The translations under genes were made by a program, and so were the position numbers. From the sequence record DRR723986_19395: a DNA stretch of 52,286 nucleotides; one strand, written 5' to 3'. Within the stretch, counting starts at the first letter, position 1. Every line of letters begins with the position of its first letter. Under the pieces are notes generated by a model. It was given only the letters and a program-made list of their open reading frames with translations. It searched no databases and was not told the origin of the DNA. Shown piece after piece: positions 40,778-44,537 of the stretch.

Positions 40778-40871
40778 GGTGTCATTTCGAAGGAGGAACG
40801 ACTGAGAAATCTCCTCTAAAACTTTAAATTTTTATTTTAAACCTTCGAGGTCAAAAAAGACCTCAAAGGTT
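40769..40871. repeat. Composite REP-like palindromic element between convergent truA and GNAT
   Basis: AACCTTTGAGGT (40769-40780), GTCATTTCGAAGGAGGAACGACTGAGAAATCT (40781-40812), AACCTTCGAGGTC-AAAAAA-GACCTCAAAGGTT (40840-40871). Confidence 0.6.
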
Positions 40872-41472: not shown

Positions 41473-42840
41473 TTAGATTTTATTTGGTTCCGGGTGAATG
41501 TACCCATCTCTATAAGGTCTTCTCAAAAGTGCCGTGGCTTCTTCATCTCCTTCAACCTTCATCGTTTTAGGATTGTAGCGAAGTGGTCTTCCGTCTAGTT
41601 CCATAGACATATTTGCCAAAATGCAGGAAGCGGTAGAAATATGACCTTCCAAAACGTCTGCAACTGGCAAAGTGTCATTTTCTATGGCCTTAAGCCAGTC
41701 TCTCATTTGCTCACGCGTAGCAGGTGCAGCGTGAACTTCATTGTCTTTTTCGGTGACATCTTCTGGATATTGCTCCTTTTCCAATACCACCGGGTAATGG
41801 ATTTGCTCACCATTATTTCGCCCTTCCGGATAAAAATCCGCTCGCATAGGACTGCCAGCGAGCATTCCATTTTCCCCGTATATTTTAAAAGCCCAAGGAT
41901 AATCCTTATCCACTGGATTGCCCCAAGTTCTGTGCTGCCAGACTACATTCAATTCATCAAACTCAAAAAGCGCAGTTTGGGTATCTGAAATATTAGCCAC
42001 GCTATCTTTCTGCACATAGATCCCGCCCGTAGAAGTCACTTGTACAGGCCACCCCAAATCCAACATCCACCGAACTGTATCTAGCATGTGTACGCACATG
42101 TCGCCCACTATTCCGTTTCCATATTCCATAAATGCCCTCCAGCCACGATGCAAAATACCTCGATAAGGTAGCATTGGGGCTGGTCCGGCCCATAGGTCAT
42201 AATTCAGATTTTCAGGAACAGGCATCACGGGAGGATTGCTGTTGTTTCGCATATGATAATAGCAGCAAACCTCAGCATGGGAGATTTTTCCTAATTTTCC
42301 AGAGTCAATAATTTCTTTTTTCGCTTGTACCAAATGTGGGGTGCTTCTACGTTGAGTTCCAATTTGCACTTTGCGATCGTATTTTCTGGCTGCTGCCAAA
42401 ATCGCTTCTCCTTCAATTACATCCACTGAAATCGGTTTTTGTAAATAAACATGAGCTCCGCTTTTCAATGCAGCTATTGCAATCAATGCATGCCAGTGAT
42501 CCGGCGTACCGACAAGGACATATTCTGGTTTTTCTTTGGATAGAAGCTCCTTATAATCCTCGTAAAGAGGCGGGACTTTACCAGACTTTTGTCTGGTGGA
42601 TACTAATTTTCCAGCTTCGGCCAGTTGCTTGCTATCCACATCACATAGGCCTACTACTTCCACGTCTGCTACTTGAATCAATCGGAAAAGATCGGACTTT
42701 CCGTACCAGCCCGTACCGATCAAAGCAACTTGCAGGGGGCCTTCGCGGTCTTTAAAGTCCATGCCAAGCAAGCCAAAACTTGCCAGCGACATCAAGGCAG
42801 TACTTCCTTTTAAAAATTCTCTTCGATTTAAGGGATTCAT
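41473..42840 (-). CDS. Tat-exported Gfo/Idh/MocA family oxidoreductase
   Basis: NRREFLK Tat motif, LIGTGWYG, GTPDHWH, YLQKP, GDMCVH. Confidence 0.9.
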   Translation of the reverse strand: MNPLNRREFLKGSTALMSLASFGLLGMDFKDREGPLQVALIGTGWYGKSDLFRLIQVADVEVVGLCDVDSKQLAEAGKLVSTRQKSGKVPPLYEDYKELLSKEKPEYVLVGTPDHWHALIAIAALKSGAHVYLQKPISVDVIEGEAILAAARKYDRKVQIGTQRRSTPHLVQAKKEIIDSGKLGKISHAEVCCYYHMRNNSNPPVMPVPENLNYDLWAGPAPMLPYRGILHRGWRAFMEYGNGIVGDMCVHMLDTVRWMLDLGWPVQVTSTGGIYVQKDSVANISDTQTALFEFDELNVVWQHRTWGNPVDKDYPWAFKIYGENGMLAGSPMRADFYPEGRNNGEQIHYPVVLEKEQYPEDVTEKDNEVHAAPATREQMRDWLKAIENDTLPVADVLEGHISTASCILANMSMELDGRPLRYNPKTMKVEGDEEATALLRRPYRDGYIHPEPNKI

Positions 42841-43016
42841 AGGTTATGGGTTTGAGTTAAAAGCGCTTCAAATTACAAAAAGATAGAACATTGGCAAGTG
42901 ATTTCCTGTTGACTGGCATTTGTCCATGAAGGGTGATTTTCAACAGACATTGACGCGCTTCTACTGCGAAAAAGCTATCTTAGTTTTTACTTTTCTCTAC
43001 TTAAACTTTTGATACC

Positions 43017-43499
43017 ATGGGACTTGAAAATCAGATTTCTGTGCGGATATCCGACGAGGATATGATTCTTTTGAATGAATACCTGAGCAAATCCACCGAG
43101 ATTTTGCATAAGTACACCGTGGAGATGTCTGCCAAAGACAGGCAGCGCAAGGACAAATTCGGAGATAAAGCGTCTTTATATGTGAGCAAATGCATCGCTT
43201 TTGCAAAGACGAACCCTGAATTTATCCCGGGCTTTATGGAGTTGGAAGAATTGGAAAAAGACTATGATCTGACCAAGCAAATGCGTTCGCTCATCATTAA
43301 AGTCATGCAAATCCGTGATTCGCTGACTGCTACCCGTGCACTTGCAGGCTTTGAAGCCAATCGTCAGGGAAATCTGTATTATAAAACAGTCAAATCGGCC
43401 ATGAAAATGGGCATCACCAATGCGATTACGATCTATAATGAGCTGAAATTTCGCTTTGCTGGTATGGGAAAAAGACCTAAAGCGAAGCCTCAGGACTAG
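43017..43499 (+). CDS. Conserved hypothetical 160-aa predicted all-helical protein
   Basis: KFGDK..YV.K...A..NPEFIP....EE...DY, AG.EA......YY..VK.A.K, A..IY.ELK.RF pattern, which I recall from an uncharacterised family in Bacteroidota and cyanobacteria; basic C-terminal tail. Confidence 0.8.
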   Translation: MGLENQISVRISDEDMILLNEYLSKSTEILHKYTVEMSAKDRQRKDKFGDKASLYVSKCIAFAKTNPEFIPGFMELEELEKDYDLTKQMRSLIIKVMQIRDSLTATRALAGFEANRQGNLYYKTVKSAMKMGITNAITIYNELKFRFAGMGKRPKAKPQD

Positions 43500-43521
43500 A
43501 TAACGCAGCTTTCATTGGAAG

Positions 43522-44061
43522 TTTGCTTCTATTGGGAAATAATCACTCGTAGTTCTTCTCCATTTTTAAGGTAAAAAAAATACCTGGAGAATTCCATAGC
43601 TGAGTTCAGTCTGCTTTTTCTACAAACAAGTCTGTGAAAAATTGTGTCATTTCTAGTAGAAATATACCCAGTCAACTTATGCAGTTAACTTTTCTACTTT
43701 CTAAGTTGGTTATTCTACTCCTAAAGTAGGATAGATCTCCAAAATGCACTGAAGACTAGCCTTTTTTGATAGTTAGTTCTATTCTGAGGAGACCGAGTTA
43801 ACTAATTGACTTGAATAAGCTACTTAATAGGTTCAATAATCAACTTATTAACTTGAATAACTGACTTATCAAGTTGATAGACTGGGTAAAATATATAACT
43901 GGTTATACTTTGGGAGGAATATACTGAGAAAAAACACTAAATGGGCTCACAAAATGGCAGGAATTGGCAATTACTCGAACAACGTATTGTGTCGATCTAA
44001 GCGCTGGCATGGTAAAAAGATGTGATTTCTGTACTTGGAAGTGACGTGATTTAGGAGCGAG
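43522..44061 (+). ncRNA. Candidate long rod-like structured RNA downstream of the 160-aa gene
   Basis: At least 10 nested complementary segment pairs across the spacer; several need G-U pairs that form only on the + strand; no ORF of 60 aa or more in the track. Confidence 0.45.
43802..43885 (+). repeat. Four degenerate 21-nt tandem repeats
   Basis: CTAATTGACTTGAATAAGCTA / CTTAATAGGTTCAATAATCAA / CTTATTAACTTGAATAACTGA / CTTATCAAGTTGATAGACTGG. Confidence 0.6.
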
Positions 44062-44075
44062 GGGTGTAGGGCCGG

Positions 44076-44537
44076 CTATTTGGCTACCCAGTCCAGTTGT
44101 CGGCCTTCTTCATTGGCTTGTTTATCCTTTGATGAACCTACAGCTATGCCAATGGCCATTCCTATTGGTAGTCCGATTCCCAAAAAAGCTAGATTTCCAA
44201 GGGAAATGCCAAATACCACTCCTAGCGGGATCCCGAAAGTAGCCATTCCAAGAACAAGCCATTGGAGTTGATAGTGATTTTGCGGGACAAGCTTGAGTTC
44301 TTGATCTAGTAGTTTGATGATACCTGCTTGTGCGGCTTTTAGTTGCTTCAGCAATTCTGGATCTGGACCTGGGAAATTATTTACTCCCGAAACAATCTCG
44401 TTTATTTTCTGCTCTTGCTCATCAGGAATAGACTTAAACTCAATAGCAGAAAGTAACGTGCTCAGATTATTGGCTGCTTTGGCAAGCTTAGGGTTTTCTT
44501 CGAAAGAAGGGCGGTGAGTTAATTCAGAAAGGGGCAT
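44076..44537 (-). CDS. Hypothetical membrane protein with C-terminal Gly-rich TM hairpin
   Basis: LVPQNHYQ..W..LGM..FGIPLG...GIGLPIGMAIG...DK.A..EGRQL. Confidence 0.75.
   Translation of the reverse strand: MPLSELTHRPSFEENPKLAKAANNLSTLLSAIEFKSIPDEQEQKINEIVSGVNNFPGPDPELLKQLKAAQAGIIKLLDQELKLVPQNHYQLQWLVLGMATFGIPLGVVFGISLGNLAFLGIGLPIGMAIGIAVGSSKDKQANEEGRQLDWVAK

What the first reader, a model, noticed from the sequence alone, without database searches (positions are those of the whole stretch)
43017..44061. Uncharacterised 160-aa helical protein followed by a ~540-nt rod-like RNA candidate: possible new protein + ncRNA system
Seen: the spacer 43500-44075 has no ORF in the track, yet its two halves pair in nested order. 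From outside in: TTTGCTTCTA 43522-31 / TAGGAGCGAG 44052-61; AATCAC 43541-46 / GTGATT 44046-51; AATTCC 43590-95 / GGAATT 43960-65; TGAGTTCA 43601-08 / TGGGCTCA 43942-49; TTTTTCT 43615-21 / AGAAAAA 43927-33; TACCCAGTC 43665-73 / GACTGGGTA 43880-88; AACTT 43674-78 / AAGTT 43871-75; CAGTTA 43682-87 / TAACTG 43858-63; TAAGTTGGTTATT 43702-14 / AATAATCAACTTA 43835-47; CCTA+AAGTAG 43720-29 / CTACTT+TAGG 43820-31; apical TAGTTAGTTC 43770-79 / GAGTTAACTA 43795-804. Several helices need G-U pairs that exist only on the + strand, the strand of the upstream gene, and I see no terminator between gene and spacer. From recall, not a search: the protein resembles a widespread function-unknown family in Bacteroidota and cyanobacteria. 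Inference: gene and structured RNA form a unit, for example a protein that binds or polymerises on its own RNA, an RNA-antitoxin/defence module or a small selfish element.
Basis: partly seen in the sequence, partly recalled or inferred. Interest (0 to 1): 0.8.

Follow-up and report, generated by a model that had tools for sequence, protein, structure and literature searches.

The report
Small gene with phased repeat array
A 1.1-kb inserted cassette carries an unknown small helical protein gene followed by DNA built from 21-base phased repeats; this pairing recurs in many Bacteroidota genomes and has no described function.

Summary
The quoted helices are at the stated coordinates. Only the inner 43665-43888 part folds better than shuffles (z -4.4 on +, -3.7 on -). 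The whole spacer does not (z -0.4 / -1.2).

The self-complementarity comes from two sets of three ACTT-N3-AAGT junction palindromes. All six lie in one 21-nt register and the two sets face each other. All seven A-runs of the spacer (43573-44014) start in the same 21-nt phase.

The 160-aa protein belongs to a large unnamed family (3925 cluster representatives) with no Pfam, PDB or fold match. In 80 relatives' loci, 55 carry a 21/42/63/84-nt tandem array within 1.5 kb downstream, against 3 in each of three control regions. These arrays end in conserved G-rich "cap" units with the same junction palindrome and the same A-tract phase as in the window.

Gene and spacer entered together. About 12 genus relatives have the two flanking genes 110-190 nt apart.

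A rod-like, co-transcribed RNA is not supported. My best reading is a DNA-level phased scaffold for protein assembly (confidence 0.4). A tandem-hairpin RNA and inert satellite DNA remain open. Rfam and two paper searches found nothing like it.

The parts
42898..42909 (+). Left edge of the inserted cassette: GTGATTTCCTGT, direct repeat of 44022-44032. Homology with 'empty' sites of relatives ends at TTGGCAAG 42891-42898. A further GTGATTT lies at 42933.
   Evidence: (empty-site alignment)
42910..43016 (+). Upstream non-coding part of the cassette (presumed promoter and 5' leader of the gene; inferred, no motif shown).
43017..43499 (+). 160-aa all-helical protein, a divergent member (24-35% identity to the 18 relatives in A1 from other loci) of a large unnamed ~160-aa family. 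98-99% identical in G001 and G178.
43476..43494 (-). Terminator-like hairpin plus T-run on the minus strand, inside the 3' end of the gene. It would stop transcription that arrives from the spacer.
   Evidence: consensus scan only
43500..44021 (.). 21-bp phased, sequence-degenerate repeat region. 7 of 7 A-runs (>=4 nt; 43573, 43637, 43741, 43888, 43929, 43951, 44014) start at phase 2-4 of one 21-nt register. GGTAAAA relics lie at 43570, 43885 and 44011. No indel against two relatives.
43665..43727 (.). Left 'cap': junction palindromes ACTT-N3-AAGT at 43675 (1 mismatch), 43696 (exact) and 43717 (1 mismatch), 21 nt apart. The outer end is TACCCAGTC.
43728..43821 (.). Central segment between the caps (about 4.5 units), apical part of the predicted hairpin. 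Less conserved than the caps.
43822..43888 (.). Right 'cap', inverted copy of the left one: junctions at 43822 (1 mismatch), 43843 (1 mismatch) and 43864 (exact). TRF finds period 21 over 43800-43877. The outer end is GACTGGGTA.
44022..44032 (+). Right edge of the cassette: GTGATTTCTGT, direct repeat of the left edge. A further GTGATTT lies at 44046. 44033-44075 resembles the ancestral intergenic DNA of relatives.

Best explanation
43017-44061 is most of a ~1.1-kb two-part cassette (about 42898-44032) that was inserted between an oxidoreductase gene and a 153-aa membrane-protein gene. Part one is a gene for a ~160-aa all-helical protein of a large, unnamed, patchily distributed family. Part two is that family's usual companion: non-coding DNA built from 21-bp units. 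In typical relatives the order is gene, intrinsic terminator, 9-14 tandem units (an imperfect 16-bp dyad plus an A5 tract), then 2-4 conserved 'cap' units (AAGT-GGRRGGGGGT-ACTT) whose junctions form the palindrome ACYT-N3-ARGT. SHOWN: the insertion; the family-wide gene-array linkage; the common 21-nt register; the identical A-tract phase; the lack of coding capacity; the lack of strand asymmetry. INFERRED: the array works as double-stranded DNA. Its A-tracts recur every two helical turns, so they should bend the DNA in one direction. The dyad-symmetric junctions would then all face one side of the helix and nucleate a dimeric or oligomeric protein, most plausibly the cassette's own protein. 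The result would be a higher-order nucleoprotein complex that works like iteron or centromere arrays (ParR-parC, omega protein and its heptads). Its purpose (cassette maintenance or spread, local insulation, chromosome organisation) is unknown.
For: Insertion: in about 12 genus relatives the two flanking genes lie 110-190 nt apart, while the window, G001 and G178 have 1235 nt between them. The edges carry an 11-12-nt direct repeat. Linkage: ACTT-N3-AAGT gives 55 hits at +250..+499 nt after the stop in 80 loci, 2.8/kb against about 0.05/kb elsewhere. ACYT-N3-ARGT occurs in 58 of 78 loci, 1.88/kb against 0.04-0.18/kb in controls. Period-21-family tandem arrays occur in 55 of 80 loci downstream, against 3/79, 3/68 and 3/76 in control regions. 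Window as a member: all six hits with at most 1 mismatch share one 21-nt register, and lag-21 autocorrelation has z 6.3. 7 of 7 A-runs are in phase 2-4, Rayleigh R 0.99, reached by 0 of 773 shuffles. Relatives peak at the same phase 3 (147 of 435 A-runs). Constraint: no indel in 576 nt and 3 differences in 260 cap positions against two relatives, while the other spacer segments are 87-97% identical. DNA rather than RNA or protein: both strands fold equally. Units pair in 44% of cells against 20-28% in shifted registers, with G-T 272 vs A-C 270 outside position 1. 9 of 33 arrays are closed in all six frames, and orthologous orphan arrays are open in different frames. A terminator lies between gene and array in 54 of 80 loci. 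Genome level: the G-rich cap unit is found in 6 of 121 family genomes (reversed control 0); 4 of these have an intact gene and 1 a remnant, against 28 of 121 overall.
Against: No binding, bending or expression was measured. The protein has no recognisable DNA-binding domain: nothing significant in Pfam, NCBIfam, PHROGs or PADLOC, and the fold searches gave only generic helical hairpins, best Z 6.8. Two paralogous loci of one genome (L055/L057) encode proteins with identical first 20 residues that are near-identical over their length by my reading of their sequences (L029/L046), yet their arrays have different unit cores, so the cores are not read specifically by the protein. Array modules occur without the gene: 4 of 10 cap places, L145-L149, 5 cap places for 2 genes in G107, and G055 has a cap but no gene hit. 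At in-register junction positions G-T slightly exceeds A-C on the gene strand (165 vs 120), which leans towards RNA or reflects G-richness. The window itself has no terminator after the gene, so read-through into the array is possible here. Multiples of 21 follow trivially from tandem duplication, so the period alone does not prove helical phasing.
Confidence: 0.4

Rival explanations
1. The array is the gene for a non-coding RNA made of tandem short hairpins with A-rich linkers and closed by very stable cap hairpins. In the window this would be one long imperfect hairpin. The RNA would bind, sequester or be processed by the neighbouring protein, like a sponge RNA or a type III antitoxin.
For: Units are imperfect palindromes whose sequence differs between loci while the dyad symmetry stays. 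Junction variants change on both sides (ACTT/AAGT to ACCT/AGGT). The last cap often reads GGGGTACTTCNGAAGTACCCC followed by a T-rich stretch. The window core has z -4.4. There is a slight G-T excess on the gene strand at junction registers (165 vs 120). The window has no terminator between gene and spacer.
Against: Only 44% of unit cells form Watson-Crick pairs and 34% are non-pairing, so the hairpins would be weak. There is no G-T over A-C excess within units (272 vs 270). Both strands fold equally, and the whole spacer folds no better than shuffles. A terminator precedes the array in 54 of 80 loci, and I found no conserved promoter by eye. There is no Rfam match in the window or in 20 relatives' loci. 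G-rich and C-rich caps occur on the same strand in different orders.
Confidence: 0.22
2. The array is selfish or neutral satellite DNA: a tandem repeat that expands and contracts by slippage and spreads with, or next to, an accessory gene. Neither the array nor its hairpin potential has a function.
For: Unit cores evolve fast and differ even between paralogous loci of one genome. Some copies are orphans, and gene fragments and pseudogenes exist. The distribution is patchy: 23 of 61 genus genomes and 28 of 121 family genomes. Other dispersed repeats lie right after some arrays. In the window the unit sequence has largely decayed.
Against: Caps, A-tract phase and the 21-nt period are kept from Cyclobacteriaceae to Prolixibacteraceae, Ignavibacteria and other phyla. 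In the window the phase survives although unit similarity is lost, with no indel in 576 nt, and the caps are far more conserved than their surroundings. An orphan array sits at the same place beside the same two CxxCH genes in two genera.
Confidence: 0.2
3. The caps are recombination or mobility sites: cruciform or hairpin ends, or inverted repeats of an invertible segment. A recombinase encoded elsewhere would recognise them and move the cassette or flip the segment between the caps.
For: The cassette is a clean insertion without a recombinase gene of its own. It has direct repeats at its edges. In the window the inverted caps flank about 94 nt. Array-only copies exist beside gene-carrying copies, like non-autonomous elements.
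Against: The caps lie inside the cassette, not at its ends. All three strains show the same orientation. The window's spacer is single-copy in the nearest genome. No attC core sites are present. No integrase or transposase recurs within 4 kb; the commonest neighbour family is seen in 9 of 80 loci.
Confidence: 0.1
4. The spacer is a decayed protein gene or hides a small gene.
For: In some relatives a frame runs open through the array and reads as heptads, for example xELxxLF in L145.
Against: The longest ORF in the window's spacer is 48 aa. 9 of 33 arrays are closed in all six frames. The open frame differs between orthologous arrays. By my reading of the units, the residues the frame would encode are not conserved between loci, while the DNA dyad symmetry and the A-tract are.
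Confidence: 0.03

Closest known systems
Centromere or iteron arrays with a small cognate binding protein (ParR-parC of plasmids R1/pSK41; omega protein and its heptad repeats). Recalled from general knowledge, not from a call.
   Same: A small protein gene lies next to a block of about 10 tandem ~20-bp repeats in helical phase. The repeats carry dyad symmetry. Extra repeat blocks lie elsewhere in the genome.
   Different: No ribbon-helix-helix or other DNA-binding domain was detected. No ParM/ParA-type partner gene recurs nearby. The loci are chromosomal, and tblastn found nothing in 72,556 plasmid or 50,697 phage records. The array lies downstream of the gene, behind a terminator. Binding is untested.
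REP/BIME clusters and their RAYT transposases (PMC3733652: only its search listing and the start of its abstract were seen)
   Same: Imperfect palindromes in alternating orientation in intergenic DNA at gene ends, with one protein gene flanked by its repeats and further copies elsewhere.
   Different: The protein is all-helical with no HUH/Y1 transposase match. There are only 2-5 places per genome. The 21-bp tandem period with A-tracts and G-rich caps is strict, and I saw no GTAG/CGTC head.
Phased A-tract clusters read as intrinsically curved DNA (bioRxiv 10.64898/2026.10.21.760802: passages only)
   Same: Runs of 4-6 A or T recur in helical phase in intergenic DNA, interpreted there as DNA curvature rather than RNA.
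   Different: There the period is 10-11 nt. Here it is 21 nt, with dyad cores, conserved caps and a linked protein family. No 21-nt class appears in the passages I saw.
Type III toxin-antitoxin loci (ToxIN-like; features recalled)
   Same: A tandem short-repeat array lies next to a single small protein gene, separated by a terminator, on a small self-contained module.
   Different: There the repeats precede the toxin gene and are about 34-36 nt. Here they follow the gene and are 21 nt. There is no PADLOC or Pfam match to ToxN/AbiQ-type proteins, and the protein is helical.
Integron gene cassette with attC
   Same: One ORF is followed by an imperfect inverted repeat, and the two are inserted as a unit.
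   Different: No RYYYAAC or GTTRRRY core sites are present. The repeat is 224 nt and built of 21-nt units. There is no cassette array or integrase nearby.

Membership tests
Module defined here: ~160-aa helical protein family plus downstream 21-bp phased array | Protein is a homolog of the family | tested here: met
   24-35% identity to the 18 relatives in A1 from other loci, with shared invariant columns. E 5.7e-27 to relatives. The profile finds 3925 cluster representatives.
Module defined here: ~160-aa helical protein family plus downstream 21-bp phased array | Tandem or phased 21-nt periodicity within ~1 kb downstream of the stop codon | tested here: met
   TRF period 21 over 43800-43877. 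Lag-21 z 6.3 in the core and 3.7 in the whole spacer. A-run phasing R 0.99. Relatives: 55 of 80 loci.
Module defined here: ~160-aa helical protein family plus downstream 21-bp phased array | Cap junction palindromes ACYT-N3-ARGT spaced 21 nt apart | tested here: met
   Six sites with at most 1 mismatch, all in one register. The G-rich spacer of typical caps is replaced here by AT-rich TGAATAACYR-like spacers.
Module defined here: ~160-aa helical protein family plus downstream 21-bp phased array | A/T-runs start at phase ~3 relative to the junction register | tested here: met
   Window 7 of 7 A-runs at phase 2-4. Relatives peak at phase 3.
Module defined here: ~160-aa helical protein family plus downstream 21-bp phased array | Intrinsic terminator between gene and array | tested here: not met
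   Present in 54 of 80 relatives; none found in the window by two scans.
Any Rfam 15 RNA family | Covariance-model score at or above the family's gathering score | tested here: not met
   Window 42800-44300: best 21.1 bits (cut-off 34) and 17.3 bits (cut-off 50). 20 relatives' loci: two hits far below cut-off.
Type III toxin-antitoxin (ToxIN-like) | Repeat array upstream of a ToxN/AbiQ-type endoribonuclease gene | tested here: not met
   The array lies downstream. No PADLOC hit at E<=1 and no Pfam hit. The family's features are recalled.
Integron cassette / attC | Core sites RYYYAAC ... GTTRRRY at the ends of the inverted repeat (recalled) | tested here: not met
   0 matches to either pattern in 43500-44075.
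ParR-type / ribbon-helix-helix centromere-binding system | Recognisable RHH (or other) DNA-binding domain in the protein | tested here: inconclusive
   No Pfam or NCBIfam match. The model leaves residues 1-12 without secondary structure ahead of helix 13-31. The conserved N-x-I-S-I-x-I stretch could be a strand that pairs only in a dimer. The dimer prediction could not be run.
ParR-type / ribbon-helix-helix centromere-binding system | Adjacent partition NTPase gene (ParM/ParA) | tested here: not met
   No conserved neighbour within 1.5 kb or 4 kb. In the window the flanks are an oxidoreductase and a membrane protein.
REP/BIME with RAYT | HUH Y1 transposase gene; tens to hundreds of REP copies | tested here: not met
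   No transposase domain. 2-5 cap places per genome.
MITE | Many near-identical copies in the genome, terminal inverted repeats and a target-site duplication | tested here: not met
   The spacer has one full-length match in the nearest genome G001; the other 31 matches are 15-35 nt with E>=0.03. It was found in 2 of 61 genus genomes. The inverted caps are internal to the cassette.
CRISPR / TIGR-type guide arrays | Constant repeats alternating with unique spacers | tested here: not met
   Units are degenerate copies of one another without unique spacers (reading). Period 21 lies outside the 60-79/18/5-nt bands quoted (passages only).

The most novel reading that the evidence does not exclude
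This is a previously unrecognised class of small mobile cassette of Bacteroidota and neighbouring phyla. A ~160-aa helical protein of a new fold family assembles along a 21-bp-phased, intrinsically bent DNA array, nucleated at ACYT-N3-ARGT caps (G-quadruplex-prone in most lineages). This would be a self-contained protein-DNA superstructure that acts as a chromosomal centromere-, insulator- or addiction-like element, with array-only copies served in trans.
Probability: 0.25. Interest if true: 0.85.

Novelty: new variant of a known kind. Interest (0 to 1): 0.68.

Why it matters
If the reading holds, thousands of 'hypothetical' ~160-aa proteins (3925 cluster representatives) and the long 'empty' spacers behind them get a joint annotation. 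The module is compact, about 1.1 kb, and easy to test, since it has only two parts: a protein of unknown fold class and a strictly phased DNA repeat with conserved caps.

It would add a chromosomal example from Bacteroidota to the few known cases where a small protein and a tandem repeat array form a unit. It also explains why assemblies of these genomes often break about 0.5-1 kb behind this gene.

There is a lesson for genome scans. A long imperfect hairpin that folds equally on both strands and sits in a fixed repeat register points to inverted DNA repeats, not to a rod-like RNA.

Tried and rejected
- **RNA expression:** The look-up of sequencing runs listed no RNA holder for 42900-44200.
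- **Own genome:** the window's assembly is not held. I worked with the nearest genome, G001.
- **Homodimer prediction:** Complex prediction with two copies of A1 was never accepted because the queue was full. Oligomerisation is untested.
- **Word-index protein search:** only 2 near-identical proteins. The search for longer, fused forms found none, which is weak evidence.
- **Sequence search of the PDB:** one hit, E 0.18.
- **Fold searches:** Foldseek gave 0 matches at E<=0.001 in both PDB and BFVD. VIA wide gave a best Z of 6.8, generic helical hairpins.
- **ESM Atlas:** only unnamed Bacteroidota clusters and one automatic 'putative LemA' label.
- **Plasmid and phage collections:** no tblastn match.
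- **Protein-to-repeat specificity:** N-terminal residues do not track unit cores. ACTT/AAGT and ACCT/AGGT junctions co-occur within single loci.
- **Upstream regions:** AT-rich only, with no shared motif.
- **Coding in the array:** rejected.
- **MITE:** rejected for the window's sequence.
- **attC:** rejected.
- **Papers:** a search for the junction strings found only primer lists in unrelated papers (listing only). Two keyword searches found nothing on such arrays (listings). The TAACTGA direct-repeat paper PMC4679880 (start of abstract only) concerns 7-nt repeats and does not fit.
Full report
**1. The observation**

The 160-aa ORF (43017-43499, +) is followed by 576 nt without any ORF above 48 aa, up to a convergent 153-aa ORF at 44076-44537.

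Folding separates an inner part that is real from an outer part that is not.
- 43660-43895 gives -60.7 kcal/mol on the + strand: z -4.38, 0 of 200 shuffles as good.
- The same stretch gives -59.4 kcal/mol on the - strand: z -3.74, 1 of 200. With DNA parameters z is -2.95.
- 43585-43970 gives z -1.38.
- The whole spacer gives z -0.40 on + and -1.19 on -.

So there is a ~224-nt imperfect inverted repeat at the DNA level, with no strand preference. The outer 'helices' are what AT-rich sequence yields by chance.

**2. What makes the inverted repeat**

The core has a 21-nt period. TRF finds period 21 over 43800-43877, and lag-21 autocorrelation has z 6.3.

Every site in the spacer that matches ACTT-N3-AAGT with at most one mismatch lies in one 21-nt register: 43675, 43696 and 43717 on the left, 43822, 43843 and 43864 on the right. 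The two triplets are inverted copies of each other, and that produces the hairpin.

The phasing reaches far beyond the core. All seven runs of four or more A (43573 to 44014) start at phase 2-4 of the same register, with Rayleigh R 0.99, reached by 0 of 773 shuffles.

I compared the window with its two close relatives, G001 and G178.
- The 576 nt show no indel.
- The two caps differ at 3 of 260 compared positions.
- The other spacer segments are 87-97% identical, and the neighbouring genes 89-96%.

**3. The protein**

No library gives a significant match: Pfam, NCBIfam, PHROGs or PADLOC. Pfam on 20 family members gives nothing shared by more than 2 of them.

A profile of 20 homologs finds 3925 cluster representatives at E<=1e-3, of which 2205 reach E<=1e-10. 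The names I could look up are all 'hypothetical protein'.

AlphaFold gives a confident all-helical model (pLDDT 88), with helices 13-31, 50-65, 76-130 and 134-146 and an unstructured N-terminus. The fold searches returned only generic helical hairpins:
- Foldseek against PDB and against BFVD: 0 matches at E<=0.001.
- VIA wide: best Z 6.8.

The family is patchy: 23 of 61 genomes of the genus and 28 of 121 of the family, with 1-4 copies per genome, some of them fragments or interrupted by stops. tblastn with one typical family member (the L028 protein) found nothing in the plasmid or phage collections.

**4. The family-wide companion**

BLASTN between the downstream regions of 22 homolog loci showed a shared palindromic motif. 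I then examined 80 further loci from named genomes (Cyclobacteriaceae, Reichenbachiella, Marinoscillum, Prolixibacteraceae, Ignavibacteria, Calditrichaceae, KSB1 and others).
- ACTT-N3-AAGT occurs 55 times between +250 and +499 nt after the stop, 2.8/kb against about 0.05/kb elsewhere.
- The wider form ACYT-N3-ARGT is present in 58 of 78 loci, and in 31 of them as in-phase pairs: 1.88/kb against 0.04-0.18/kb in three control regions.
- TRF finds arrays of period 21, 42, 63 or 84 in 55 of 80 loci within 1.5 kb downstream, against 3 of 79, 3 of 68 and 3 of 76 in control regions.

Read directly, the usual order of parts is:
1. The stop codon.
2. A strong hairpin+T-run terminator; a scan finds one in 54 of 80 loci.
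3. 9-14 units of 21 nt, each an imperfect 16-nt dyad plus AAAAAG.
4. 2-4 cap units, AAGT-GG[GA][GAT][GA]GGGGT-ACTT, taken from 33 units.

A-run starts in these relatives peak at phase 3 relative to the junction motif (147 of 435), the same phase as in the window. The window's spacer cannot be aligned with them base by base. It shares the period, the junction palindrome and the A-tract phase, so it is an AT-rich, degenerate member of the same module class.

**5. Gene and spacer as one inserted unit**

In about 12 relatives of the genus, the orthologs of the oxidoreductase (41473-42840) and of the 153-aa gene are direct neighbours with 110-190 nt between them. The window, G001 and G178 have 1235 nt there. 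The spacer DNA itself was found in 2 of the 61 genus genomes searched, and as one full-length copy in G001.

Homology with the empty sites ends at TTGGCAAG (42891-42898) and resumes near 44033. The edges carry GTGATTTCCTGT (42898-42909) and GTGATTTCTGT (44022-44032). Intergenic divergence makes the exact ends uncertain, and I cannot say whether this repeat is a target duplication.

No neighbouring gene family recurs: none within 1.5 kb, and the commonest within 4 kb is seen in 9 of 80 loci.

**6. Arrays without the gene**

The double-junction pattern occurs at 2-3 places per genome in 4 of 5 genomes, with a reversed control of 0. Those are 10 distinct places:
- 5 have the full gene within 1.5 kb.
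- 1 has a 43-aa remnant.
- 4 have no gene.

Five further orphan modules, L145-L149, show no gene at E<=10 within about 2.5 kb. L150 holds one orphan and one gene-linked array.

One orphan (L141) is 75% identical over 611 nt to a gene-linked module of the same genome. The shared stretch covers the array, the caps and about 200 nt beyond them. Another orphan array sits beside the same two CxxCH genes in two genera.

At genome level, the G-rich cap unit is found in 6 of 121 family genomes (control 0 of 121). Four of the six have an intact gene, one has a 34-aa remnant and one has none. These genomes are related to each other, so they are not independent counts.

**7. DNA, RNA or protein?**

*Protein.* 9 of 33 arrays are closed in all six frames. 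Orthologous orphan arrays are open in different frames. The array is not coding.

*RNA.* These observations weigh against it:
- The core folds equally on both strands.
- Units are truly dyad-symmetric, 44% Watson-Crick cells against 20-28% in shifted registers, but 34% of cells cannot pair.
- G-T equals A-C once the fixed first position is set aside, 272 vs 270.
- A terminator usually precedes the array.
- Rfam finds nothing.

These weigh for it:
- Dyad symmetry survives turnover of the unit sequence.
- G-T modestly exceeds A-C at junction registers on the gene strand, 165 vs 120, though this may only reflect G-richness.
- The window has no terminator after the gene.
- No RNA data could be obtained.

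*DNA.* A-tracts recur every 21 bp, which is two helical turns, and keep their phase in the window even where unit similarity has decayed, without indels. All the dyad junctions then fall on one face of the helix. A recent preprint reads phased A-tract clusters of period 10-11 as DNA curvature (passages only).

I therefore favour a DNA-level, bent, phased scaffold for a dimeric or oligomeric protein, at confidence 0.4. The cassette's own protein is the obvious candidate, but two findings weaken that link. The proteins of the paralogous loci L055/L057 share identical first 20 residues and are near-identical over their length by my reading of their sequences (L029/L046), yet their arrays have different unit cores. 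And some arrays occur where no gene was found.

**8. Comparison with known systems**

The module works most like iteron or centromere arrays with a small cognate protein. It also recalls REP/BIME clusters with their RAYT genes, type III toxin-antitoxin loci and integron cassettes. Each membership test that could be run failed on a defining feature; see the membership table.

Two keyword searches and one search for the junction strings in the paper library found no description of such arrays (listings only). Supplements were not consulted.

**9. Verdict**

What is there is a local, degenerate copy of a widespread gene-plus-phased-repeat cassette that I could not find described. Its function is unknown and can be tested.

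Noticed in passing
window 40781-40815: The sequence GTCATTTCGAAGGAGGAACGACTGAGAAATCTCC resembles a short dispersed repeat (GTCATTTCGA...GAGAAATCCCC) that occurs several times just behind the arrays of loci L055/L057. It is probably a REP- or MITE-like element of this bacterial family.
   Followed up: no
L022:2390-2611 (G001 paralog locus): The ~220 nt right behind the paralog's array is a dispersed repeat. It has several copies in G178 and G145, including one on each side of G145's copy of the gene and one next to a 77-aa gene fragment in G178.
   Followed up: partly
L145:2297-2563 and L150:2176-2540: An array module without the gene lies at the same position, about 0.3-0.8 kb from the same pair of small CxxCH (heme-binding-like) genes, in two different genera. 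This suggests long-term retention of an orphan array.
   Followed up: partly
window 42300-44537 against G001/G178: Identity is mosaic. The 160-aa gene is 99.6% identical to G001, but the flanking oxidoreductase is 91%, the left spacer 87% and the 153-aa gene 89%. Against G178 the order is partly reversed. This suggests recombination within the cassette region among close strains.
   Followed up: no
loci (e.g. L060, L064, L070, L075, L078, L093, L103, L107): Many public contigs end 0.15-1 kb downstream of this gene, probably because short-read assemblies break in the 21-nt arrays. Counts of arrays in draft genomes are therefore lower bounds.
   Followed up: no
cap units in relatives (e.g. L055, L081, L091): Adjacent G-rich cap units read GGGAGGGGG-TACTTCNGAAGT-GGGAGGGGG, that is four G-runs with a hairpin-forming middle loop, which gives G-quadruplex potential. 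The window's own caps have no G-runs.
   Followed up: no
window 43476-43494 (- strand): A terminator-like hairpin plus T-run on the minus strand lies inside the 3' end of the 160-aa gene. It is the only terminator-like site in 42800-44300.
   Followed up: no
L134/L138/L141, about 100-250 nt beyond the caps; also L081, L091: A second palindrome, GAATT-N3-AATTC (GAATTTGTAATTC), recurs up to four times outside the caps, once as the stem of a strong minus-strand terminator-like hairpin. The window has GGAATTGGCAATTAC at 43959-43973.
   Followed up: no
relatives' loci L152-L170: In most genus relatives the oxidoreductase has a second copy, 72-77% identical, directly beside it on the side away from the cassette. 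I did not check the window for this.
   Followed up: no
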